Source: Promethearchaeia archaeon (lineage in GTDB: Archaea > Asgardarchaeota > Lokiarchaeia > Sigyniarchaeales > SOKP01). Taken from it: a stretch of 32,000 nt of DNA. Below are positions 1,757-25,005 of this stretch, piece by piece. Below the pieces are notes generated by a model that had not been told where the DNA came from, ran no database searches, and worked only from the letters and a program-made list of their open reading frames with translations. The translations under genes and the position numbers were made by a program. The stretch is from assembly GCA_046497275.1 (NCBI GenBank), contig JAWOFX010000053.1, positions 1 to 32,000 of the forward strand. The letters are read 5' to 3'. How positions within the stretch are numbered: the first letter of the stretch is position 1; each line of letters starts with the position of its first letter.

Positions 1757-3112
1757 TTAGATTTTTGATTTTAGATCATTTAATTTGGTTTTAATATCTT
1801 TGATCTCTTGAGATAAATCAATTTTTTCAGAAGGCATAGACTCATATAGTTCCAATATAATTTCATATCTGCCAATCGCTCTTCCGATCTTTCCCATACT
1901 CTCCTCTTTTTCGGCTTTTTTATAGAGCAAATTCGCTTTTTTGATCTTTCTTTTATTCTCTTCAGAGAGAGAACTCATTCTTTCAAATTCTATCTGTTCT
2001 CTCTTCTCTTTCTTTCTTTTTAATTCTTCGATTCTCTTTTGAAACATTTCATCTTCTTTCTCTTTTTGGAGAATGGTTTGCTTTTGTTTCTTTAAGAAAT
2101 CAAGTTTATATTTTTCTAAATTTTTTATCTCCGCATATATCTTATTCACTTCATTAAACCACCCAAGATCTTTAAATTTTTTTATAGCTTGGCAATAAAA
2201 TTCCTTTGCTTCATCATATTGATGGTTCTTTATCCTTCCTTTTGCTTGATCTAAAAAGAGTTCGGCCTCTTTCAATAATTTTTCTTCTTGGTCTTTCTTA
2301 TCTTGAATTTTTTTGTGCAATTCAAGTCGTTTATGGTTTTTAGTTTGTATTTTATTGTCTCTTTGTCTAATTTTTACTCCACTTTTTGTTACATCTTCGA
2401 CTTCGTTTATACTACGATCCACCCTCTCTCTAATTTCTCGTCTTCTCTTTTCTGCCCATGTTAAATCAGCTGATTGGGTTTTTACAACATGATTGATACT
2501 TTTTTCTTGTAATTTAGATGGTTCTTTTTCAAGAGGATAGGAGATTGTATTATCAATTTTTTTCTTTTGGGATTCCTTATTGAATCTATTTTCATAAAAA
2601 TCAATATTTTCTCTTTCTTTTTCTAATATCTGAACTTGTCGTGACCAGCCAAGTTCTTTAAAAATTTCAATTGATTCATCATAACATTTTTTAGCATTTT
2701 GATAATCGTGTTCATTAATACATTTATTACCTCTGTCTAAAATTGCTTCTGCTTTTTTGACTCTTTCTTTTTGCTTTCTTTTTTCTATATCAGCGGGAGT
2801 TTCTATAATCTTCTTAGAGACGCGCTGATTCTTAGCGGATTGATGAGAATCGACAGAAATTTCATTTTTTTCTATTCTTTCAAAAGTAGGAGTATATTCA
2901 GATTCTAATGGTGTCTCATACAAAATTAATCTTTTTGTTCGCTGGATCCTTTTATCAATCATATTACCTTTTCCATGAAATCCCAATTCTTGATTAATCA
3001 CTTTCGCTTTCTCGAACAATTCTATAGCAGAATGATAATTTTTTTTTGATAATTCATCCTTTGCCTCTCTCTCTAATTGATCAGCTTCTTTTTCTTTTGA
3101 TTCTTTAGACAT
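1757..3112 (-). CDS. Charged helical protein with four dispersed TPR/MIT-like three-helix repeats
   Basis: 451 aa. Four segments share the pattern A..L...A......Y..A...Y..A...F.ELG(W/F), separated by K/E/R-rich linkers. Confidence 0.75.
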   Translation of the reverse strand: MSKESKEKEADQLEREAKDELSKKNYHSAIELFEKAKVINQELGFHGKGNMIDKRIQRTKRLILYETPLESEYTPTFERIEKNEISVDSHQSAKNQRVSKKIIETPADIEKRKQKERVKKAEAILDRGNKCINEHDYQNAKKCYDESIEIFKELGWSRQVQILEKERENIDFYENRFNKESQKKKIDNTISYPLEKEPSKLQEKSINHVVKTQSADLTWAEKRRREIRERVDRSINEVEDVTKSGVKIRQRDNKIQTKNHKRLELHKKIQDKKDQEEKLLKEAELFLDQAKGRIKNHQYDEAKEFYCQAIKKFKDLGWFNEVNKIYAEIKNLEKYKLDFLKKQKQTILQKEKEDEMFQKRIEELKRKKEKREQIEFERMSSLSEENKRKIKKANLLYKKAEKEESMGKIGRAIGRYEIILELYESMPSEKIDLSQEIKDIKTKLNDLKSKI

Positions 3113-3237
3113 ATATATACAAAATAAAAATTGTCCTATTAAAGAATTTTCAAAATGTCGAAAATTTAAATTTAAAAAGTAATAAAATTATAAAATTTTA
3201 GAGTATTAATTCATAAAAATTTTAAAAAGGAAAAAAA

Positions 3238-4326
3238 ATGGAAAAATTAAAAATCGGAATTTTAGGCGCCACAGGTATAGTTGGCCAGAATTATATTAAA
3301 TTACTGCAAGGACATCCATGGTTTGAGGTGGCTGATATTGCCGCATCTCCACGTTCGGCCGGTAAGACCTATGAAAATGCGGCTGGTCCAAAATGGCAGA
3401 TGTCTGTTCCGATTCCAGAAAATATAAAAGATTTAATTGTCCGTGATGTTCAAGATTTTGATAGTATCCCTGACAATTTGAGTTTTGTATTTTCTGCGAT
3501 AAATATGCCTACTAAAGATCTAATAAGAGAAGTTGAATTTATGTATGCGAAAAATGATATACCTGTTGTGAGTAATAATTCAGCTCATCGTTGGACACCA
3601 GATGTACCCATGATAATAGGAGAAGTAAATAATGAACATTCCGAAGTAATTCCTATTCAACAAAAAAGAAGAGGTTTTTCTAAAGGATTTGTTGCTGTTA
3701 AGCCTAATTGCTCAATTCAAAGTTATGTAACTCCTATTTTCGCACTCGAACAAGCAAGCTATAAGATTGAAAAAATAATCGCAACAACTCTGCAAGCAGT
3801 ATCAGGAGCAGGTTACCCTGGAGTTCCCTCTCTGGATATGATTGATAATATAGTTCCTTATATTGGAGGAGAAGAAGAAAAATCAGAGAAAGAGCCGTTG
3901 AAAATATTCGGAAAAGTTACTGAAGAGGGTATTATAAATGATGATTCAATCGAGATAAGTGCTACATGCACAAGAGTTCCCGTCACGGATGGGCATACAG
4001 CGTCTCTCAACGTCAAATTCAAAGATAAAGTACCTAAAATAGATGAAATTATAGATATATGGACAACTTTCACATCTCTACCTCAGGAATTAGATCTTCC
4101 ATTCGCACCAAAACAACCAATAATATATCTCTATGATGATGAGAGACCTCAACCAAAAAAAGATAGGGATAATGATAAAGGAATGGCAGTTACTGTAGGA
4201 AGATTAAGAGAGGATAATGTCTTCGATATAAAATTCGTTGCACTTAGTCATAATACAATTAGAGGGGCAGCTGGTGGAGCTATTTTAAATGCTGAATTAT
4301 TAAGAACTAAAGGATTTATTAATTAA
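3238..4326 (+). CDS. asd: Aspartate-semialdehyde dehydrogenase
   Basis: Rossmann motif ILGATGIVGQ, SNNSAHR, catalytic KPNCS, QAVSGAGYPG, CTRVPVTDGH, SHNTIRGAAG. Confidence 0.97.
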   Translation: MEKLKIGILGATGIVGQNYIKLLQGHPWFEVADIAASPRSAGKTYENAAGPKWQMSVPIPENIKDLIVRDVQDFDSIPDNLSFVFSAINMPTKDLIREVEFMYAKNDIPVVSNNSAHRWTPDVPMIIGEVNNEHSEVIPIQQKRRGFSKGFVAVKPNCSIQSYVTPIFALEQASYKIEKIIATTLQAVSGAGYPGVPSLDMIDNIVPYIGGEEEKSEKEPLKIFGKVTEEGIINDDSIEISATCTRVPVTDGHTASLNVKFKDKVPKIDEIIDIWTTFTSLPQELDLPFAPKQPIIYLYDDERPQPKKDRDNDKGMAVTVGRLREDNVFDIKFVALSHNTIRGAAGGAILNAELLRTKGFIN

Positions 4327-4345
4327 TGTACCTTAGTTTTTCCAA

Positions 4346-5917
4346 TTAGAAAATATGCTTATCTATAAAAATGGTTAAGATCTTCTTTATAAGAGAAATC
4401 GTCCCTGTCTTCTTCAGATATAGGTATTCTGGTTTTTTAGGATAAACATCAAAATAAAGTTGTTTCTTCAATTTTTTAAGAGTTTTCACTTTTGAGATTA
4501 TATTGAAGTTATTGAAACTCATTATAAAATTATGGAGTAATTTAGATATTAACGAGATATCTACAGATAATGCTAAATCAATGTACCCAAAATTTTCCAT
4601 CAGTTTCCTTCTAACACCGTTTAAGCCAAGATTTTTGATCTCATTTACTTTATTAGATATCGGTATTATTTTAGTTAATTTTCTATTTTCTGTTTCTATT
4701 AAAATGGCTTTATTAAATCCTATCTCTATTGGATTTTCTAATTCACCTAAATCAATATTTTTATGTTGCAGTAGGTTTGTGAAAAGGATCAAAATTCTAT
4801 TTTTCAATCCCAACCTATTATAAAACAAACTAAACAGAAATTCTGGTATTTCCCAGTGCGACAACTTTTTAAGATAAATATTAAAACCAAGAAGTTTTAA
4901 AAAATATCTCAAAATTGGATTATAACTTATAGGCTTTGGATATTTAAACCAATATGTTTCATAAGACCTAAGTCCAAACAAAAATTTTTGGAAAAGTAAT
5001 TTTATTTTATCTAGCCCAATTGGATGCTGGAGTTCAAATATATTAGATAATAAGGTTAAAATGTGTTTGAGCTCGAAAAGAAAAATAAAGTCAACCTTTA
5101 ATTGAAGATATAATGATTTTAATAAATCAATCTCATTATCTCCGCTAAAATCAATATTAAATAATTCTGCGGGGAATATTTGGAGATCTAATTTGTTTTC
5201 TGAACTTTTCTTCTCTTTGTTTTCGATTCTTAGTATAAAAGAAGATTTGCCAGATCGTATTAAAAAAGCGTAATTAAATGGGGGGAGTATTTGTTTGATG
5301 AATTTAAATCCATTTGATAGAAAATTATGATCTGAAATCTGCGTTAATTCTTCAAAAAAGTTAATAACATTCGTTTTGGGAAATATGAAGAATAGCTGAT
5401 TTCTGATTATCTTTTCAATTATAGAGAAAATATTAGTTAGAGAATCTTCAAGAGATCTTTGTTCAATATCTTTTACATATAGGTTTAGTATCTCAATGGC
5501 TTTTTTTTTAAAAACGCGCATATGAGATACTCTAATTCTATGCTTTTTAAAAATTTCTTCTTGTAATTTGTTGAAAAATGCTCTTGTTTCTTTTAAAGGA
5601 TATTTCTTCAACTTTAAAATATCATTTTCTAAAATTTTATATGATTTGTGAATACCTGGCTCTTCTGTTTCATATAGAACAATTTGTTCTAATATTTCTT
5701 CATCATCTGAGATAATAATATCTACAACATTTTGTTGATCATTGATAAATTTTGGATATAAAATTCCAAATAGAGAATTTAATAATTTTGGGTTAATCTT
5801 AATAGAAGTGAGAGGGATTCTAACAGCTTCTTCTGGCTCATTTTCCCCTTTACGAAGTTCTTTTTTATTATTTTTGATAATTTTCATCCAGTTATCATAA
5901 AAATTACGATGAATCAT
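4346..5917 (-). CDS. Hypothetical protein (~523 aa), no recognisable family
   Basis: Long open frame. I prefer the ATG at 5917 (MIHRNF) over the track's TTG at 5938 because it lies 2 nt after the DUF362 stop and has GGAGG (5931-5935, minus strand) upstream. Confidence 0.75.
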   Translation of the reverse strand: MIHRNFYDNWMKIIKNNKKELRKGENEPEEAVRIPLTSIKINPKLLNSLFGILYPKFINDQQNVVDIIISDDEEILEQIVLYETEEPGIHKSYKILENDILKLKKYPLKETRAFFNKLQEEIFKKHRIRVSHMRVFKKKAIEILNLYVKDIEQRSLEDSLTNIFSIIEKIIRNQLFFIFPKTNVINFFEELTQISDHNFLSNGFKFIKQILPPFNYAFLIRSGKSSFILRIENKEKKSSENKLDLQIFPAELFNIDFSGDNEIDLLKSLYLQLKVDFIFLFELKHILTLLSNIFELQHPIGLDKIKLLFQKFLFGLRSYETYWFKYPKPISYNPILRYFLKLLGFNIYLKKLSHWEIPEFLFSLFYNRLGLKNRILILFTNLLQHKNIDLGELENPIEIGFNKAILIETENRKLTKIIPISNKVNEIKNLGLNGVRRKLMENFGYIDLALSVDISLISKLLHNFIMSFNNFNIISKVKTLKKLKKQLYFDVYPKKPEYLYLKKTGTISLIKKILTIFIDKHIF

Positions 5918-7447: not shown

Positions 7448-8518
7448 CTATTCTAAATAATAATTATCCCCAACTTGAGTTATCTTTGAAGATTTTGAAA
7501 GAAATTCTTTTAAAATTTGTATTTCCTTATCGTGACCTTTTTCAGGAATAATTATATTGAATGAATATTCCTGTTCATTATTTATTTTTATCCAATGAAG
7601 CTTTTCAAAAAATTTCAGTTGTTTCAGCACAGTATTATTCAAAATTCCATTGGATTGAGAATTAAAAACCATATTATTTATTATTTCTATGATCTCGTCG
7701 AAATTTTTAAAACTAATATAAATATCCTTATCCATTGCTAGTTTTGTCCATAAATAAAGATCATCCTCCTCTAAAATAGAAGAGAGATTTATTATCCTTT
7801 TCAAATTTTGCTCTGCTAAGATTCTTCTTTCTGCTCTAAGGGACTTAGGATTAAAAAACAAATCCGTAGTTTCAACCTCCATCCTTGAATATATTCCATC
7901 CTTAGAAATTTCAACTTTATTAACTTTTGCCCCTAGATACCCAAAAAAGACTGCATTGTATTTTATGTTTTCGAAGCAAATATTTTTGTAGTAAATTGAC
8001 ATTTCAAAAACATATTTAATATTTCTTTTTTGTTTCTCAGTTTTAATGTCAATTTTAAAATTTTTTACTAACTCTTTATTTTTAAAATGACTTTTAAGTT
8101 TTTCAAAGAATTCTTTAAATTGTGTTAGATTATATGGATCAAAATTTTTAACATAAAGATTTCTTGTTGATAAGAGAAAATAGGATAAGTTTAAAATTGA
8201 ATCTTCGTATCTATTAGGTTCTAGGAACTCTTCAAAAATAGGGGCAAAGCTTTTATAAGAAAATTTATCGTAAAAACTATCTAAGCTACTGTCTCTTGAA
8301 TTGTATAAATCAGTCAAGTCTCCCCCTTCTTCAAGATATGCTAAAAATTCATTCATAACATACGTATAAAAGGATGATATACTTTTATAAGCTGGATCAT
8401 TGGAATTTTCTCTCGCCCTTTGTTGACAAAATTCTGAAATCTCTTTTTTTAATTCAGGAGAAATTGAAATTGTTTGCTTTTTAGTCTTTTTATTTGATAA
8501 ATATCTTTTAGGTGTCAT
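7448..8518 (-). CDS. Putative transcription regulator: N-terminal ribbon-helix-helix-like domain plus unknown ~280 aa C-terminal region (paralog A)
   Basis: KQTISISPELKKEISEF...YKSISSFYTYVMNEFL fits a beta-strand/helix/helix pattern. Colinear with 8536..9609 along its full length. Confidence 0.65.
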   Translation of the reverse strand: MTPKRYLSNKKTKKQTISISPELKKEISEFCQQRARENSNDPAYKSISSFYTYVMNEFLAYLEEGGDLTDLYNSRDSSLDSFYDKFSYKSFAPIFEEFLEPNRYEDSILNLSYFLLSTRNLYVKNFDPYNLTQFKEFFEKLKSHFKNKELVKNFKIDIKTEKQKRNIKYVFEMSIYYKNICFENIKYNAVFFGYLGAKVNKVEISKDGIYSRMEVETTDLFFNPKSLRAERRILAEQNLKRIINLSSILEEDDLYLWTKLAMDKDIYISFKNFDEIIEIINNMVFNSQSNGILNNTVLKQLKFFEKLHWIKINNEQEYSFNIIIPEKGHDKEIQILKEFLSKSSKITQVGDNYYLE

Positions 8519-8535
8519 AATGTCTAAACCTATTC

Positions 8536-9609
8536 TTAAATGTTCGTTCTTTTTTTTAAACTAAAATTCCCCTCATCTTGGACAATTTGAGCGTATTTCA
8601 ATATAATTTCCTTAAAAAATGTAATTTCCTCTTTATTTTGTTTTTTTTCAAGAACAAATTTGAATTTTAAATCGTTTTTGTTGTCAGCTTTAATCCAATG
8701 AATTTTTTCAAAAAATTCTAATAATTTTGAAACTATATCTCCCTCCATTTCTAAAAACTCCAAATCTTGCTCAATTTTTTTAATCCAATTATCTAATACT
8801 TTTATATTAATAAATCTTAGAAATGCATTATCATAGGAAGACATCTCCATCCAAAAATAGGGATCAAAATCATTTAAAAGTCGAGAGTAGTCTTTAAAAA
8901 AATCAAGATTTTTTTGAACTAATTTAATTCTTCTATTTCTAATTATTTTTTTAGAGAAAAAAAGTTGAGTTGTGATATAACTCAATTGAGCAAAAGAATC
9001 CTTCTCAGAGTAGAAGAAATCGATTAATTTAACCCCTAAAAATCCTAAAATTATAGATAAAAATTTTAGATTTTCATACTGCAAATTTTTATATGCTCCA
9101 ACATGTTCGCAAGTTAATTTTATATCTTCCAGTTTTCTTGACTTTGTTAAATGATAACTAAGATTCTTGCTTATCTCCTCTGGGACCGCCAAATCAATAC
9201 ATTTTTCAAAAATTTCTTCTAAATCACTAAAGTTATAAAAGTTTTTGTCTTTTATTAGTGATTTTCTTATTGTAATCAGAAGGGGGACTTTTCTCCTGAT
9301 ATCGATACCTCTATATCTATTCATTTTAAGCCATTCTTCATGTAATGAAAGTATTGCCCTAAAAGTAAGACCGTCCAAATAATCAGCTTTAGATTCTTTT
9401 TCTTGTTTATTTAAATCCCCGAAATTTTTACCAGTTTTTAAAAATTTTAATGCACATTCTAAAATGTAATTGTAAAACGCTGATACGCTTCTATATTTCT
9501 CACTGTCTGGATTTTCATTATGTTTTTTTTGAACGAACCTCTCAATCCAATCCTTAAGAGCTGGAGAAATCGAGATGGTTTGTTTCTCCGTTCTTTTTCT
9601 TTCAAGCAT
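8536..9609 (-). CDS. Putative transcription regulator: N-terminal RHH-like domain plus unknown C-terminal region (paralog B)
   Basis: KQTISISPALKDWIERF...YRSVSAFYNYILECAL. Shares NRY, YKN...EN.K, G.LG.K, TT.LFF, D.Y.W and L.FFEK.HWIK with paralog A. Confidence 0.65.
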   Translation of the reverse strand: MLERKRTEKQTISISPALKDWIERFVQKKHNENPDSEKYRSVSAFYNYILECALKFLKTGKNFGDLNKQEKESKADYLDGLTFRAILSLHEEWLKMNRYRGIDIRRKVPLLITIRKSLIKDKNFYNFSDLEEIFEKCIDLAVPEEISKNLSYHLTKSRKLEDIKLTCEHVGAYKNLQYENLKFLSIILGFLGVKLIDFFYSEKDSFAQLSYITTQLFFSKKIIRNRRIKLVQKNLDFFKDYSRLLNDFDPYFWMEMSSYDNAFLRFINIKVLDNWIKKIEQDLEFLEMEGDIVSKLLEFFEKIHWIKADNKNDLKFKFVLEKKQNKEEITFFKEIILKYAQIVQDEGNFSLKKRTNI

Positions 9610-12074: not shown

Positions 12075-13067
12075 ATGAAGTTGATTTTTTCGAGATTTGA
12101 TCCCACTAAAAAGATAATTCTGGTGTATTCTATTCCTGATCAAAATATCTCATCAGAGATACAAACAAATTTAGAGAAGTTCTATGATAAATATAGTGAA
12201 GAAAATCCAGAGGAAAGACTCGATCACTATGATATTGGACCATATCTCTCTTATATTTTCAAAGTTGAATCTGCATGGTATCCTGATGAGGAGGAAATAC
12301 TTATGCTCACCCTATATTTTGAGGAACATGAAAATACTCATTTTTTCAGACCAATCATGGAACAAACAATTTCAAATTTAAAAGAAATTCCCAATCTCAC
12401 TAAAATCTTGTATGTAAATACACCGCACGCAGATAATGAATCTTTTAAAATTTTCGGGAAAATCATTAGGATTTTAACGGATTGCTTCTTCGAATCTTCA
12501 AAATTACACTCCACCTATAATTTAGGCTTGTCGGAAGTGTTACTCTTGGGAGATAAAGGGAGTGGAAAAACATCAATAGTTGACTATCTTATTCATGGTA
12601 AATTTATTCCACAAACGTCTCCAACACTTACACCCCAAGTTTTTCGACTTGTTTATGATAAAGTTGATTTTCGTGTGTTAGATATTTGTTGTGAAGAACA
12701 TTTAAAAGAGGTTTTTGAAGATCATCCCTTGGAGTCAGGAAAATTACCCCAAGCGGTTGTATATGTGATTGATGCTACTCAAAATGAAAATGAATTGCAA
12801 AATTCGGTAAAGGATTTTAACGAATGGATAAAATTTCTGCGCAAAAAATATCCTAAATCTGTTTTTAATACACTTCCGTTCCTAATACTCTTTAATAAAA
12901 GTGATTTAATTCCAAATTTTAATTTTGAAAGATATAAAAAGCTTTTTAGTCCAAAAGATTTTGATTTGAATTTAAAATATTCAATGAGTTCAGTGAAAAC
13001 AGGGGAAGGATTAAATGAGAATTTTTCCTGGGTTGTAAACCATATAAAAGTAACAGAAAAATATTAA
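12075..13067 (+). CDS. Fusion of an N-terminal longin/uDENN-like domain and a C-terminal Arf/Rab-like small GTPase with atypical G3
   Basis: GTPase: G1 GDKGSGKT, G2 SPTLT, G3 position DICCE, VVYVIDAT, G4 FNKSD, G5 SVKTGEGL. The N-terminal ~140 aa (LIFSRFDP..IILVYSIP...YLSYIFKVESAW...EEILMLTLYF) resemble Asgard uDENN/longin modules; that part is judged by eye. Confidence 0.8.
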   Translation: MKLIFSRFDPTKKIILVYSIPDQNISSEIQTNLEKFYDKYSEENPEERLDHYDIGPYLSYIFKVESAWYPDEEEILMLTLYFEEHENTHFFRPIMEQTISNLKEIPNLTKILYVNTPHADNESFKIFGKIIRILTDCFFESSKLHSTYNLGLSEVLLLGDKGSGKTSIVDYLIHGKFIPQTSPTLTPQVFRLVYDKVDFRVLDICCEEHLKEVFEDHPLESGKLPQAVVYVIDATQNENELQNSVKDFNEWIKFLRKKYPKSVFNTLPFLILFNKSDLIPNFNFERYKKLFSPKDFDLNLKYSMSSVKTGEGLNENFSWVVNHIKVTEKY

Positions 13068-13132: not shown

Positions 13133-13351
13133 TTATTGGTATTTAATTGCCAATAATAGATCATTCTTGGTAATTTTCTTCCTGTTTGCATGCATTGTGA
13201 ATTGTTTTGCTTGTTCAGTTAAGTTTCGAGCAGTCTTTTCTAAATGATCAATTAATAAATCGACTGCATCTCGAGCGACAATGCTCGCACCTTGTTGTTT
13301 CATTAATCTCCTGATTGGGCTCCATGCGAAAGTATGTTTCTTTTTAGCCAT
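13133..13351 (-). CDS. Archaeal histone (HMf-like fold)
   Basis: 72 aa: SPIRRLMKQQGASIVARDAVDLLIDHLE...HANRKKITKNDLLLA; GGAGG ribosome-binding site upstream. Confidence 0.93.
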   Translation of the reverse strand: MAKKKHTFAWSPIRRLMKQQGASIVARDAVDLLIDHLEKTARNLTEQAKQFTMHANRKKITKNDLLLAIKYQ

Positions 13352-15884: not shown

Positions 15885-16178
15885 ATGAATATACACCTAG
15901 ATGAAGAGACCAAAAAAAAAATCATTAAGATTTTAAATAAACATGGAATAAAAAAGGCTTTTTTATTTGGTTCCTATGCGCGTGGTGAAGGGACACCAGA
16001 AAGTGATTTAGATCTTATTGTAGAATTTCCTGAAGGAACTAGCTTATTTGATCACATATCTATCGAAAATGAATTATCAGAAACTTTAGATATAAAAGTA
16101 GATCTTCTTTCTAAAAATGGAATAAGTCCTTACTTTAAAGATGAGATTATGAAAGATGCGGTTGTGATATTTGGATGA
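15885..16178 (+). CDS. mntA: MNT (minimal nucleotidyltransferase) antitoxin
   Basis: LFGSYARGEGTPESDLDLIV (GSx10DxD) and KVDLL; 97 aa. Confidence 0.9.
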   Translation: MNIHLDEETKKKIIKILNKHGIKKAFLFGSYARGEGTPESDLDLIVEFPEGTSLFDHISIENELSETLDIKVDLLSKNGISPYFKDEIMKDAVVIFG

Positions 16179-16533
16179 AGAAAGAAAGAGATTATTTATT
16201 TTTAACCACATCTTTGATGCTTATTCCCAAATATCTAAATATTTGGAAAATATAGATTATGATAATTTTCAAAAAAATCGCTTACTCCAAGATTCTGTAA
16301 TGAGGGAACTTGAAATTAATGGAGAAGCAAGTAAAAATCTTTTAGAAGATTTTAGAAATAAATTTCCAGATATTCCTTGGAGATTGATAGCAGGTATGAG
16401 AGATAAATTAATACATGGATACTTTTCTATAGATATTATTGAAGTTTGGAATATCGCTAAACGAGATATTTTAGACTTAAAAAAGAAATTAGAATTGGTT
16501 TTTAATAAACTAAAGAACAAGTTGCAGAAATAA
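16171..16533 (+). CDS. hepT: HEPN/DUF86 RNase toxin (HepT-like)
   Basis: RELEINGEASK, FPDIPW..IAGMRDKLIHGY (Rx4HxY). TTG start overlaps the MNT stop. Confidence 0.9.
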   Translation: MDEERKRLFIFNHIFDAYSQISKYLENIDYDNFQKNRLLQDSVMRELEINGEASKNLLEDFRNKFPDIPWRLIAGMRDKLIHGYFSIDIIEVWNIAKRDILDLKKKLELVFNKLKNKLQK

Positions 16534-16808: not shown

Positions 16809-18863
16809 GTGAAGTTAATTCATAATACATTTGATGAGAAAAGAGAAATCGCTGGATTTTCTAAAGACGAGTTAATAGAGATTAAAAAAAAGATCTCAGA
16901 GTTTAAATCTAACAAAATTGATCAATCAGAATTTATGGAGATACTCCAGAGTAAGTTTTCAGAGGAATTATTGGAAGGGCACTCAAAATATATTGAAAAT
17001 ATGGTCAAATTTATAGAATTATATTTCTCAAAATTTTTAACAAGTGCAGAAGAGCATCAATATAATTTTTACTACCTGAAATCGGGGTTATTAGAAGAAT
17101 TAGAATTAATTTATAAAAATCTTTTAAATTTGAAATTGAATGCTCAAAATACGAAGAGATTTTTAAAAGATAATACATATCTAAAATCATATATTACCCA
17201 AATTAATAATATTTCTGAACTCAATAAGGATCTTCAATTAAAGTTAAAAAAGAAGGGAAATGCTCCAATAGAATATGAGGATATTTCTCATATATGGCTT
17301 GAGATAAATAGAATTAAGAACCTCCTTTATAAAATTATCGATACAGAAGAATTAGAAACTTGGGAAGAATTGTCAAATGTATTTAAGTTTTTAAAGAAAA
17401 AGGGGGAGAAAGAAGTAAAAGGTGGCCTTTTTAGTAAGAAAGAAGCGGAAGTAATTTTTGAATTTAAAATATTAAATGATTATATCTCCAGCTCACAACA
17501 AGAGAACTTCAATTTCTATTGCGATTTATATTATCTCCTATATTTAAACGAAATATTAACTGAATTAAAAGAGCAAGAGTTTTCAAACATACTTGAACGT
17601 AAAGAAGTTAAAGTCCAACTAAGAAATTATATGCGTTCTATTATAAAAGATCTGATTTTTATAAAATTAGATAACTTCATTCAAGAGATAAAATCTTTTA
17701 AAGAGGGGGCTGAATATGATAAAGAAGATATTAAAGCAGACATCGATAATTTAAAAAATGAGAAGATTAAAATTTTATTGCCAAAATTAGTTGATCTTTA
17801 TTTTATTGGGTTAGAAAATCATTATCAATTATTAACTACAAATATACAGGATACTCAAAAATTTGATGAGATAATAGATGAATATTCAGAAAAAATTGAT
17901 AGGTTTTATGATATAATTGAGAAAATAAAAGATTATACATCAAACTATGACACATTTTTGAAACCATATGAAGAGATGCTGATTTCTTTACGTAAAATCT
18001 TCTCAAATCTTTTAGAAGACATATATAGACGTAAGGGAGAATTTAACTATTACTTAGAAGCTATTAAAAAAGAGAGAATGAAAGAAGATATAAGATCATT
18101 TACTTCAGAAAAAATTAAAGAATTAAACTCTCTGATTGAAAAATATCGAGATGAAATAGCTATATTATTAAAAGAGAAAATGCCCCAGTTAGAGAGTGTC
18201 GAAGAAATTATAATTACTTACAAAGATCAAATAAATAAGATTAAAGATGATTTATATCACAAGTTAAGAGAGCATGAGAAAAAAGATTTAGATCAATATC
18301 AGATTATCAAACAATGGGAAGAAAATTATAAAAGAAGTAAAGAGCAAATAGGTTTTTTATTATCACAGTATTTGACGAATCTTTATAAAGATTTTGAAGG
18401 AATAATCGAAAAAGAAGAGGCACTTTTCGAAAGAGTTAAGGAAATTACAAAATATAGCGGAGATCAAGAAGAATTACCCTTGAATTATGCCTTTTCCACA
18501 TTTTTATCAGATAAACTAACAGAAGAGGAATTACGGGAAAGAATGGTGGAATTGAAAGCAAAGCTTAATAAATTAAGACACCTCGAGAGATTGTATGAGG
18601 ATGAATTATCACAATTAAAAGACAATTTAGAAACTAAGGTCAAAATTAGAGAGGGGATTTCAACTTCAAATGTAGAATGTTCTGTTTGTAGGAAAAAGAT
18701 TAATTTCGCAAAAGATAAAATAATTAAATGCCCTTTCTGTGGAGCTATTTATCATTATCTTTGTGTAGCATTTTGGCTTTCAAAATATAATAGTTGTCCC
18801 TCTTGTCAGAATGTTTTCTTAGATCCAAACCAAAATATTTATGAAACACAACCAGAAGAATAA
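16809..18863 (+). CDS. Large helical/coiled-coil protein with C-terminal C4HC3 RING-variant finger (putative E3 ligase)
   Basis: aa 624-666 read CSVC-x13-CPFC-x4-HYLC-x3-W-x6-CPSC; the preceding ~600 aa are K/E/L/I-rich and helical. GTG start. Confidence 0.8.
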   Translation: MKLIHNTFDEKREIAGFSKDELIEIKKKISEFKSNKIDQSEFMEILQSKFSEELLEGHSKYIENMVKFIELYFSKFLTSAEEHQYNFYYLKSGLLEELELIYKNLLNLKLNAQNTKRFLKDNTYLKSYITQINNISELNKDLQLKLKKKGNAPIEYEDISHIWLEINRIKNLLYKIIDTEELETWEELSNVFKFLKKKGEKEVKGGLFSKKEAEVIFEFKILNDYISSSQQENFNFYCDLYYLLYLNEILTELKEQEFSNILERKEVKVQLRNYMRSIIKDLIFIKLDNFIQEIKSFKEGAEYDKEDIKADIDNLKNEKIKILLPKLVDLYFIGLENHYQLLTTNIQDTQKFDEIIDEYSEKIDRFYDIIEKIKDYTSNYDTFLKPYEEMLISLRKIFSNLLEDIYRRKGEFNYYLEAIKKERMKEDIRSFTSEKIKELNSLIEKYRDEIAILLKEKMPQLESVEEIIITYKDQINKIKDDLYHKLREHEKKDLDQYQIIKQWEENYKRSKEQIGFLLSQYLTNLYKDFEGIIEKEEALFERVKEITKYSGDQEELPLNYAFSTFLSDKLTEEELRERMVELKAKLNKLRHLERLYEDELSQLKDNLETKVKIREGISTSNVECSVCRKKINFAKDKIIKCPFCGAIYHYLCVAFWLSKYNSCPSCQNVFLDPNQNIYETQPEE

Positions 18864-23991: not shown

Positions 23992-25005
23992 ATGAAACTT
24001 TACCTAGTAGATAAAGGTGAACTGAAAGAAATCAATAAACCAGTGTTTTCAACTGGAGATGTGTATATCTTAGACAATAATCATACAATTTATGTTTGGA
24101 TTGGAAGTAAATGTAGTGTTGATGAAAAGACTTCTGGAGCAGCTCAAGCACGAACATTGGATCAAGAACGCGGGGGTGCTGCCAAAATAATTACTATAGA
24201 TCAAGGACAAGAAACAGATGATTTCCTTAAATTAATAGCTGATATGGGAGCGATGAAGATCGTAAACAAAAACATCGCAAAAACTATGTTAAAGGATGTA
24301 TACACTGGAGATTTTGCTGGATTTACTGAACATAAAAATGTTCTCTATCGTGTTAGCTCCGAAGAATTTGAAGATATTAACACGATGAAGATGGTACAAG
24401 TTCCTTACTCTGAGGACTCTCTGGATTCCGAAGATTGTTTTGTTATGGATTTAGGAACAAAAGTTTATGTATGGCAAGGAAATGCATGTAATGTTAAGGA
24501 AAAGGTGAAAGCGGGACAATGGGCAAGAAAGATAGATGTTGATAGAGCAGGATCTCAAAATGAAGAGATTTTTGAGGAAGGAGATGATATGCGATTCATT
24601 GAAGCTCTGAAAAAAGGAACAGATTATAAAGAATCTGATGCGGTTCAGTTAGAAGCTGAATCAGTGATGGAAGAAGAACCTCCTGAACAAAAAATCGAGC
24701 GTGAACATAAATCAGAGATTCGAGATGCAGAACCAGAAGAAAGAGTGTCTATAAAGCCAGAAGCACCTAAGATTAAGGAATCTGCTGCTTCAAAAGCCAG
24801 TCCTGGAATACCTGGTCGACGGGATGATTCCATCCTAACTATAGAAAAGACAGAGGGTAGGAGAGTATGTCCTAACTGTGGAGAAGAGAACCCGCATATG
24901 TTACATGAGAGCATCGATAAAAGCAATGTTATAATGGATTATCCACGCGTGTATGGAAAGAAGTATAAGTGTGGCTCTTGTGGAACCGAATGGCGTGAAA
25001 AGTAA
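23992..25005 (+). CDS. Two-domain gelsolin-like actin regulator with acidic linker and C-terminal Zn ribbon
   Basis: Domain 1: FSTGDVYILD..IYVWIGSKCSVDEK. Domain 2: LDSEDCFVMDLGTKVYVWQGNACNVKEK. C-terminal CPNCG...CGSCG. Confidence 0.9.
   Translation: MKLYLVDKGELKEINKPVFSTGDVYILDNNHTIYVWIGSKCSVDEKTSGAAQARTLDQERGGAAKIITIDQGQETDDFLKLIADMGAMKIVNKNIAKTMLKDVYTGDFAGFTEHKNVLYRVSSEEFEDINTMKMVQVPYSEDSLDSEDCFVMDLGTKVYVWQGNACNVKEKVKAGQWARKIDVDRAGSQNEEIFEEGDDMRFIEALKKGTDYKESDAVQLEAESVMEEEPPEQKIEREHKSEIRDAEPEERVSIKPEAPKIKESAASKASPGIPGRRDDSILTIEKTEGRRVCPNCGEENPHMLHESIDKSNVIMDYPRVYGKKYKCGSCGTEWREK

What the first reader, a model, noticed from the sequence alone, without database searches (positions are those of the whole stretch)
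12075..13067. Longin/uDENN-like domain fused to a small GTPase with a Cys-Cys switch II (DICCE)
Seen: G1, G2-Thr, G4 and G5 are intact, but G3 at 12681-12695 encodes D203-I-C-C-E207 where Arf/Rab proteins have DxGGQ/DTAGQ. The invariant gamma-phosphate-sensing Gly is Cys and the catalytic Gln is Glu. The N-terminal 140 aa look like an Asgard longin/uDENN module. Known: DENN and longin domains form GEFs for Rab-type GTPases in eukaryotes, and the G3 Gly drives the nucleotide switch. Inference: a regulator-GTPase fusion that binds nucleotide but switches poorly (pseudo-GTPase), or one gated by thiol redox or metal at CCEEH. This bears on the origin of GEF-GTPase pairs.
Basis: partly seen in the sequence, partly recalled or inferred. 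Interest (0 to 1): 0.7.

Follow-up and report, generated by a model that had tools for sequence, protein, structure and literature searches.

The report
Asgard Arf pseudo-GTPase with Cys/His switch
A small group of Loki-type Asgard archaea carries a fused regulator-plus-Arf-GTPase protein that has lost both its switch-off arginine and its normal GTP-sensing motif and gained a strictly conserved cysteine/histidine cluster there, so it probably binds GTP without cycling and may hold a metal; the fusion is already catalogued, but this variant has not been described.

Summary
D203-I-C-C-E207 lies at 12681-12695 in an intact 330-aa gene under purifying selection. C205, C206, H209 and H217 are invariant in 45/45 relatives; E207 is not conserved. 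The N-domain folds as a longin, but its closest matches are the GAP-type longins FLCN and NPRL2, not DENN GEFs. The parent Asgard family carries the GAP hallmarks (GP 44/49, arginine-finger RG 55/59) plus DxGGQ. This clade has lost all three and sits inside an arginine-less branch whose other members mostly keep DxxG. Best reading (0.6): a derived, GTP-binding but non-cycling ArfR pseudo-GTPase whose switch II became a fixed surface, possibly pinned by a zinc-type ion at C205/C206/H209 (about even odds). The GEF-origin reading is not supported. The orthologue in cultured Promethearchaeum syntrophicum is already listed as a longin-GTPase and as ArfR; the papers read do not remark on the Cys/His switch. 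It was found in 8 of 161 Lokiarchaeia genomes. The scan noted this family before on another genome. New variant of a known kind; no biochemistry yet.

The parts
12075..13067 (+). Gene for a 330-aa longin-ArfR fusion; apparently stand-alone, with no conserved operon
   Evidence: neighbours differ among distant orthologues and are shared only with close relatives
12075..12521 (+). Longin domain (aa 1-149), FLCN/NPRL2/SMCR8 lineage, without GAP motifs
   Evidence: AF2 pLDDT 91, beta-beta-alpha-beta-beta-beta-alpha-alpha-alpha; VIA Z 12.1 lysosomal folliculin complex chain H, 11.7 GATOR1 chain B, 11.6 Loki longin 8yqg; Foldseek
12099..12113 (+). beta1-beta2 loop (DPTKK), where the parent family has FDxxxGP; GP lost
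   Evidence: GP 0/29 in clade, 44/49 in parent family
12270..12290 (+). beta4-beta5 loop (SAWYPDE), where the parent family has SxWARG; arginine finger lost
   Evidence: RG 0/30 in clade, 55/59 in parent family; this loop carries SMCR8 R147 / FLCN R164
12528..13052 (+). Arf-related (ArfR) small GTPase domain, aa 152-326
   Evidence: Pfam Arf; fold hits Arl1, HodArfR1, Arf6; MK-D1 orthologue classed ArfR by tree
12549..12572 (+). G1 P-loop GDKGSGKT, with a clade-specific Lys161 at the Ras-G12 position
   Evidence: G1 30/30; K161 28/30 in clade, 3% outside
12624..12626 (+). G2 Thr184, retained
   Evidence: 29/30
12681..12701 (+). Altered G3/switch II start, D203-x-C205-C206-x-x-H209; candidate metal half-site
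   Evidence: 45/45 invariant; three side chains can reach one point with helix intact
12723..12749 (+). Clade-specific insertion H217-P218-x-x-x-G222-x-L224-P225 at the end of switch II
   Evidence: absent from paralogues; H217 and P218 invariant; low pLDDT at 217-221
12825..12866 (+). Clade-specific conserved residues on helix 3 (W251, L255, Y259, F264), which lies beside switch II in the G fold
   Evidence: the packing role is inference
12894..12905 (+). G4 NKSD, intact
   Evidence: 30/30
12990..12998 (+). G5 SVK, intact
   Evidence: S306 invariant

Best explanation
A derived, GTP-binding but non-cycling pseudo-GTPase. The ancestor was a longin-ArfR fusion carrying its own FLCN/SMCR8-type GAP module (GP motif, arginine finger) and a normal DxGGQ switch. 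One branch first lost the GAP motifs. A sub-branch then replaced GGQ by C-C-x, gained H209, H217 and a four-residue insertion, and put Lys at the Ras-G12 position. The protein should still bind guanine nucleotide and Mg (G1, G2, G3-Asp, G4 and G5 kept) but hydrolyse slowly and not toggle switch II. Switch II has been repurposed as a fixed surface, about as likely as not pinned by a zinc-type ion on C205/C206/H209 with a fourth ligand from H217, solvent or a partner. It would work as a constitutive scaffold or non-catalytic partner subunit, as FNIP/NPRL3 do among longins and RGK proteins do among GTPases. Shown: fold, motif losses, conservation, tree position. Inferred: nucleotide binding, loss of hydrolysis, metal, scaffold role.
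For: GP, RG, G3-Gly and G3-Gln are 0 in the clade against 44/49, 55/59, 52/59 and 48/59 in the parent family. With the diagnostic columns masked, the clade (SH-aLRT 100) nests in an arginine-less branch (100), and its nearest sisters already have decayed G3 (DVSGS, DLSGD, DICGH, DVDEE). Ras G60A is stuck in state 1 with drastically impaired intrinsic GTPase activity (PMC4867591). G1 and G4 are 30/30 and G2 29/30. Switch II is constrained, not decaying: 5 of 14 clade-specific invariant sites are Cys/His against 12/330 residues (Fisher p 4e-5, post hoc). A tandem duplicate at 46% identity lost the G2 Thr but kept C,C,H,H. C205, C206 and H209 can reach one metal on an intact helix.
Against: No biochemistry. 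Strict retention of the G2 Thr and the new K161 could serve real hydrolysis. H217 cannot share the site unless residues 212-217 unwind (gap 2.8 A with the helix fixed, 0.2 A if freed; crude reach test without sterics). AF2 models the switch regions and the domain orientation poorly (pTM 0.54). Cys and His are often conserved for other reasons. No partner or conserved gene neighbour was found. The tree is a quick search and unrooted; polarity rests on eukaryotic GAP longins and Arfs having the arginine and GGQ.
Confidence: 0.6

Rival explanations
1. An active but non-canonical GTPase. Lys161 in the P-loop acts in cis (or across a dimer) in place of the lost arginine finger, and the Cys/His cluster or a bound metal positions the water in place of Gln, so the protein still cycles without a GAP.
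For: K161 is 28/30 in the clade and 3% outside; the G2 Thr is kept in 29/30. Its gain coincides with the new switch II.
Against: The residue at the Gln position is free (E/D/K/N/T). K161 is not invariant (A and E occur). Bulky residues at the Ras-12 position usually impair hydrolysis (own knowledge). Loss of the G3 Gly impairs hydrolysis in Ras.
Confidence: 0.17
2. A metal- or thiol-gated switch: metal occupancy (or oxidation or persulfidation) of C205/C206/H209/H217 folds or unfolds the end of switch II, so the protein reports metal or redox state instead of, or coupled to, the gamma-phosphate.
For: Four invariant Cys/His lie in the switch itself. All four can meet only if the helix end rearranges, which would be a conformational change. 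HypB has a metal-binding Cys inside G3/switch II with proposed gating (PMC11672702).
Against: No metal-related gene neighbourhood in the orthologue loci read. HypB and COG0523 are SIMIBI-class proteins and keep the G3 Gly. A disulfide switch is unlikely in the cytoplasm of an anaerobe (own knowledge).
Confidence: 0.13
3. One reading: a uDENN/longin GEF fused to its Rab-type substrate, a relic of how GEF-GTPase pairs arose.
For: The N-domain is a longin and weakly resembles DENND1A (Z 8.2), DENND10 (7.6), TRAPP (9.1-9.9) and Mon1-Ccz1 (8.5). A longin that has lost GAP motifs could in principle promote exchange.
Against: GAP longins score higher. The parent family has GP and RG, and GP is absent from DENND, TRAPP and adaptin longins (PMC12290439). 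There is no cDENN/dDENN region in 330 aa. The G domain is ArfR. The clade is derived and narrow.
Confidence: 0.05
4. Sequencing error, private mutation or a decaying gene.
For: Patchy distribution (8/161 genomes); several other lineages of the family also have degenerate G3.
Against: 45/45 conservation with synonymous Cys codon changes; dN/dS about 0.1; present in a closed genome.
Confidence: 0.01

Closest known systems
Asgard longin-GTPase ('LG') fusions and ArfR/AArf: Tran et al. 2024 (PMC10933270), Vargova et al. (10.1101/2024.02.28.582541), Zhu et al. 2025 (PMC11914678)
   Same: Same architecture. The MK-D1 orthologue WP_162306576.1 (53% identical) is in Tran's Suppl. Fig. 6b as 'LG' and in Vargova's Table S3 as ArfR by tree. 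Zhu notes N-terminal longins on AArfs.
   Different: The passages read do not remark on the DxCC-x2-H-x7-H switch, the loss of GP/RG or the order of loss. No N-terminal amphipathic helix; a longin takes its place.
Longin GAP subunits FLCN, NPRL2, SMCR8 and their Asgard homologues with GP motif and arginine finger (PMC12290439; PMC8213707)
   Same: Same fold and best structural matches. The parent family has both motifs in the same loops. SMCR8 is an Arf GAP.
   Different: This clade lacks GP and the arginine, so it resembles the non-catalytic partners FNIP/NPRL3 in motif content; it is fused to the GTPase and has no DENN region.
RGK proteins (Rad, Gem, Rem; G3 = DxWE) and other pseudo-GTPases (PMC4081519; PMC12490416)
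   Same: G3 glycine replaced while G1, G4 and G5 are conserved; thought to deviate from the GDP/GTP switch.
   Different: Unrelated origin (Ras branch). RGKs have a poorly conserved G2, whereas this clade keeps the Thr. No Cys/His cluster or longin.
G3E metallochaperone GTPases HypB, UreG, COG0523 (PMC11672702)
   Same: Cys/His ligands in or near the switch regions; HypB has a Cys within G3/switch II.
   Different: SIMIBI class, not Ras superfamily; metal binding proven there, only inferred here; no client gene nearby.

Membership tests
Longin domain | Five-stranded antiparallel sheet with beta-beta-alpha-beta-beta-beta-alpha-alpha order | tested here: met
   AF2 model pLDDT 91; the top rows of both fold searches are longins, best Z 12.1, rmsd 2.8 over 133 residues
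GAP-type longin (FLCN/NPRL2/SMCR8) | Arginine finger in the beta4-beta5 loop | tested here: not met
   Loop reads SAWYPDE; RG 0/30 in clade, 55/59 in parent family. Loop equivalence rests on secondary-structure position, not a residue-level superposition
GAP-type longin (FLCN/NPRL2/SMCR8) | GP motif before beta2 | tested here: not met
   0/29 in clade, 44/49 in parent family
DENN-module GEF | uDENN longin followed by cDENN and dDENN lobes | tested here: not met
   The longin (1-149) runs straight into the G domain (152-326); no room for DENN lobes and no DENN Pfam hit
DENN-module GEF | Nucleotide-exchange activity | not testable with these tools
   needs a mant-GDP assay
Ras-superfamily small GTPase | G fold with G1, G2, G4, G5 | tested here: met
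Ras-superfamily small GTPase | G3 DxxG with catalytic Gln | tested here: not met
   DxCC in 45/45; Gln position variable
Asgard ArfR | Phylogenetic placement of the G domain with ArfR/Arf | tested here: inconclusive
   No superfamily tree was built here. Best Pfam, PDB and fold hits are Arf/Arl and HodArfR1, though a Loki Rag-like structure ties by Z. The orthologue is published as ArfR by tree and among Rag/Arf-like 'LG' proteins by Tran
Classical Arf | N-terminal amphipathic helix | tested here: not met
   The N-terminus is a longin; the G domain is preceded by its last helix
Pseudo-GTPase | No or negligible GTP hydrolysis or binding | not testable with these tools
   predicted from motif loss only
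Metal-binding GTPase | Three or four Cys/His ligands converge on one ion | tested here: inconclusive
   C205/C206/H209 can converge; H217 only if the helix end unwinds; no metal measured

The most novel reading that the evidence does not exclude
A Ras-superfamily (Arf-related) protein in which gamma-phosphate sensing has been replaced by a Cys2His2 metal site built into switch II, so that metal occupancy or thiol state sets the switch conformation; it evolved from a self-inactivating GAP-GTPase fusion and is present in the cultured archaeon Promethearchaeum syntrophicum.
Probability: 0.13. Interest if true: 0.75.

Novelty: new variant of a known kind. Interest (0 to 1): 0.45.

Why it matters
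It gives a traceable case of how a pseudo-GTPase arises: loss of the tethered arginine finger, then decay of G3, then fixation of a new Cys/His switch II. All three stages exist as natural proteins that can be expressed and compared. The parent family (GP + RG longin fused to a DxGGQ Arf-like domain) is a ready test of whether Asgard FLCN/SMCR8-type longins are Arf GAPs, a question raised in PMC12290439, and this clade is its natural dead control. The orthologue is one of two ArfR rows seen for cultured MK-D1 in the part of the published table that was read. It says little about eukaryote origins directly, because it is a late, narrow Lokiarchaeia offshoot.

Tried and rejected
Homodimer prediction with Zn and GTP riding along gave no verdict (score 0.41, mark 0.42; no contacts returned); it is not used for or against binding. 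Sequence searches of the N-domain against Pfam and PDB found nothing significant; one of 36 parent-family longins hit Pfam Folliculin weakly (E 0.004) and was not identified. Fold searches with the whole model were filled by the G domain, so the N-domain was folded alone. The first whole-protein genome search under-counted because only 8 candidates per genome were scored; domain-focused searches replaced it. No conserved operon or partner gene. The sigma-70 promoter scan was at chance level and does not suit archaea. The careful bootstrap tree did not finish; the quick tree was used. A first geometry script timed out. No paper was found for 'LokiRag' or for the orthologue's accession in main texts; Zhu's supplements are not held. 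A heme c motif (CxxCH) was rejected: the spacing is CCxxH. Fused or longer forms were not searched with lengths='longer'.

Full report
Observation. The ORF 12075-13067 (+) encodes 330 aa with no internal stop. Bases 12681-12695 give D203-I-C-C-E207. HMMER aligns this to DVGGQ of Arf1, so both glycines are Cys and the catalytic Gln position is Glu. G1 (GDKGSGKT), G2 (T184), G4 (NKSD) and G5 (SVK) are intact, and Pfam Arf is the best family (E 5e-15). Homologues with names come from Lokiarchaeota/Promethearchaeota. Among the 60 G-domain hits in the window's own genome this is the only DxCC protein; most have DxxG.

Not an error. All 27 homologues from the first search have DxCC. Pooling later searches gives 45 distinct segments, picked by the upstream DFRV[LI]D motif, and all 45 have C205, C206, H209 and H217. 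Both Cys codons occur at each cysteine. Clade identity spans 34-90%, and dN/dS against three orthologues is about 0.09-0.15, with dS near saturation. The clade is narrow: one copy in each of 8 of 161 Lokiarchaeia genomes, in two families, and it was not found in the other Asgard classes among 400 genomes searched. Many of these genomes are incomplete.

The N-domain. Sequence searches name nothing. Folded alone it gives a confident model (pLDDT 91) with longin topology. The best structural matches are a subunit of the lysosomal folliculin complex (6nzd_H, Z 12.1, rmsd 2.8, 133 aligned), a GATOR1 subunit (8fw5_B, 11.7), a Loki longin (8yqg, 11.6), Lst4 (10.6) and C9orf72-SMCR8 (10.2, 9.2); I read the first two chains as FLCN and NPRL2 from their ranges (own knowledge). 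TRAPP (9.1-9.9), Mon1-Ccz1 (8.5) and DENND1A (8.2) score lower; Foldseek agrees. The top three are tied within 1 Z unit, and the gap to DENN is about 4.

The parent family changes the reading. A profile search over 1.8 billion representatives returned about 70 more distant proteins of the same architecture. Most have YFDxxxGP in the beta1-beta2 loop, SxWARG in the beta4-beta5 loop and an Arf-like DxGGQ. [quoted passage not shown] The finger of SMCR8 (R147) and FLCN (R164) lies in the betaL4-betaL5 loop (10.1101/2020.04.16.045708), and SMCR8 uses it on Arf1 (PMC8213707). Counts for the DxCC clade, its 11 nearest relatives and the other 59 are: GP 0/29, 1/11, 44/49; RG 0/30, 0/11, 55/59; G3 Gly 0/30, 10/11, 52/59; G3 Gln 0/30, 7/11, 48/59; G2 Thr 29/30, 10/11, 51/59. 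So the module is a disabled GAP-type longin, not a GEF.

Order of events. In a tree built without the diagnostic columns, DxCC proteins form one group (SH-aLRT 100) inside an arginine-less group (100). The basal members of that group keep DxGGQ or DxAGQ, and the nearest sisters have decayed motifs (DVSGS, DLSGD, DICGH, DVDEE; supports 87-99). The simplest path is loss of the GAP motifs, then decay of G3, then fixation of CC-x2-H-x7-H. This is a quick, unrooted tree. The direction rests on the arginine and GGQ being shared with eukaryotic GAP longins and Arfs.

Switch II was rebuilt, not abandoned. Forty columns are invariant in the clade and 14 of these are specific to it; five of the 14 are Cys or His (H85, C205, C206, H209, H217) against 12 of 330 residues (Fisher p 4e-5, chosen after the fact). 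H118, H145 and H174 are 29/30. The clade also has a four-residue insertion starting at H217-P218, new conserved residues on helix 3 (W251, L255, Y259, F264) and the linker (H145-G151, E154), and Lys at the Ras-G12 position (28/30 against 3%). A tandem duplicate only 46% identical to its neighbour lost the G2 Thr and the C-terminus yet kept all four Cys/His, which is mild evidence that they serve something other than the phosphate cycle. An ideal-geometry reach test shows that C205, C206 and H209 can meet on one ion with the 207-215 helix intact, while H217 joins only if 212-217 unwind. The test ignores sterics and angles. AF2 is weak in the switches (pLDDT below 50 at 185-196 and 217-221; pTM 0.54).

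Mechanism. Nucleotide binding is expected because G1, G4, G5, the G2 Thr and the G3 Asp are kept (inference). Cycling is expected to be poor: the G3 Gly bonds the gamma-phosphate, and Ras G60A stays in the inactive state 1 with drastically impaired hydrolysis (PMC4867591); the Gln is gone; the tethered arginine finger is gone. I therefore read it as a nucleotide-loaded, non-toggling scaffold or non-catalytic partner (0.6), with a structural metal at C205/C206/H209 about as likely as not within that reading. Rivals are a non-canonical active GTPase using K161 (0.17), true metal or thiol gating (0.13) and a GEF fusion (0.05). The genome also encodes arginine-finger longins (C46:14102-14980, C69:17628-18950, C65:19763-20827) that could be partners, but nothing here links them. 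Gene neighbours are not conserved beyond close relatives.

What is known. Longin-GTPase fusions in MK-D1 are published (PMC10933270), and the orthologue WP_162306576.1 appears there as 'LG'. Vargova et al. class it as ArfR by tree. Zhu et al. note longins on Asgard Arfs. Asgard longins with GP and arginine finger are described. Loss of the G3 Gly is known in RGK proteins, and a metal-binding Cys in G3/switch II is known in HypB. In the passages I could read, none mentions this motif, the paired loss of GAP motifs or the order of loss. Earlier scan notes saw the same family in another genome and related longin-ArfR fusions.

Verdict. Real, conserved and a new variant of a known kind. It works like a pseudo-GTPase with a non-catalytic longin. 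It fails the membership tests for GAP longin, DENN GEF, classical Arf and canonical G3. Interest 0.45; it would be about 0.75 if metal gating were shown.

Noticed in passing
window 13133-13351 (-): 72-aa archaeal histone-fold gene (Pfam CBFD_NFYB_HMF, E 2e-11), convergent with the finding; the same neighbour occurs in two close relatives.
   Followed up: partly
G000 C65:19763-20827 (-): 355-aa longin with GP and ARG motifs fused to a degenerate GTPase (P-loop GAENAGKS, G3 region read as DCIDKQ): intact finger on a dead G domain, the mirror image of the arginine-less DxGGQ sisters.
   Followed up: partly
G000 C46:14102-14980 (+) and C69:17628-18950 (-): Longins with GP and SDWARG motifs but no GTPase domain; candidate trans-acting GAPs.
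   Followed up: no
P0038, P0071, P0091, P0097, P0124, P0141, P0161: Several other lineages of the longin-ArfR family have independently degenerate G3 motifs (DVDEE, DMEDQ, DIPGK, DIPPK, DLDPN, NFSEK, DMPIK).
   Followed up: partly
P0029 and P0189 (Logan SRR28370465 contig, 2639-3571 and 3847-4854): Tandem pair of DxCC genes at 46% identity; the first lacks the G2 Thr and ends just after G4.
   Followed up: partly
P0099, P0122, P0140, P0143, P0148, P0151, P0152, P0159: Longin-ArfR modules at the N-terminus of much longer proteins (700-2300 aa); the C-terminal parts were not examined.
   Followed up: no
window 15885-16533 (+): Minimal nucleotidyltransferase plus HepT-like ribonuclease pair (MNT-HEPN toxin-antitoxin type) after the proteasome subunit gene.
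   Followed up: no
window 7448-8518 and 8536-9609 (-): Two tandem 356/357-aa genes with similar N-termini (KQTISISP) and no Pfam match; the pair is kept in relatives.
   Followed up: no
window 16809-18863 (+): 684-aa coiled-coil-like protein with a C-terminal RING-type Cys/His domain (weak Pfam zf-RING_2).
   Followed up: no
window 23992-25005 (+): Two-repeat gelsolin-domain protein, a known Asgard eukaryotic signature protein.
   Followed up: no
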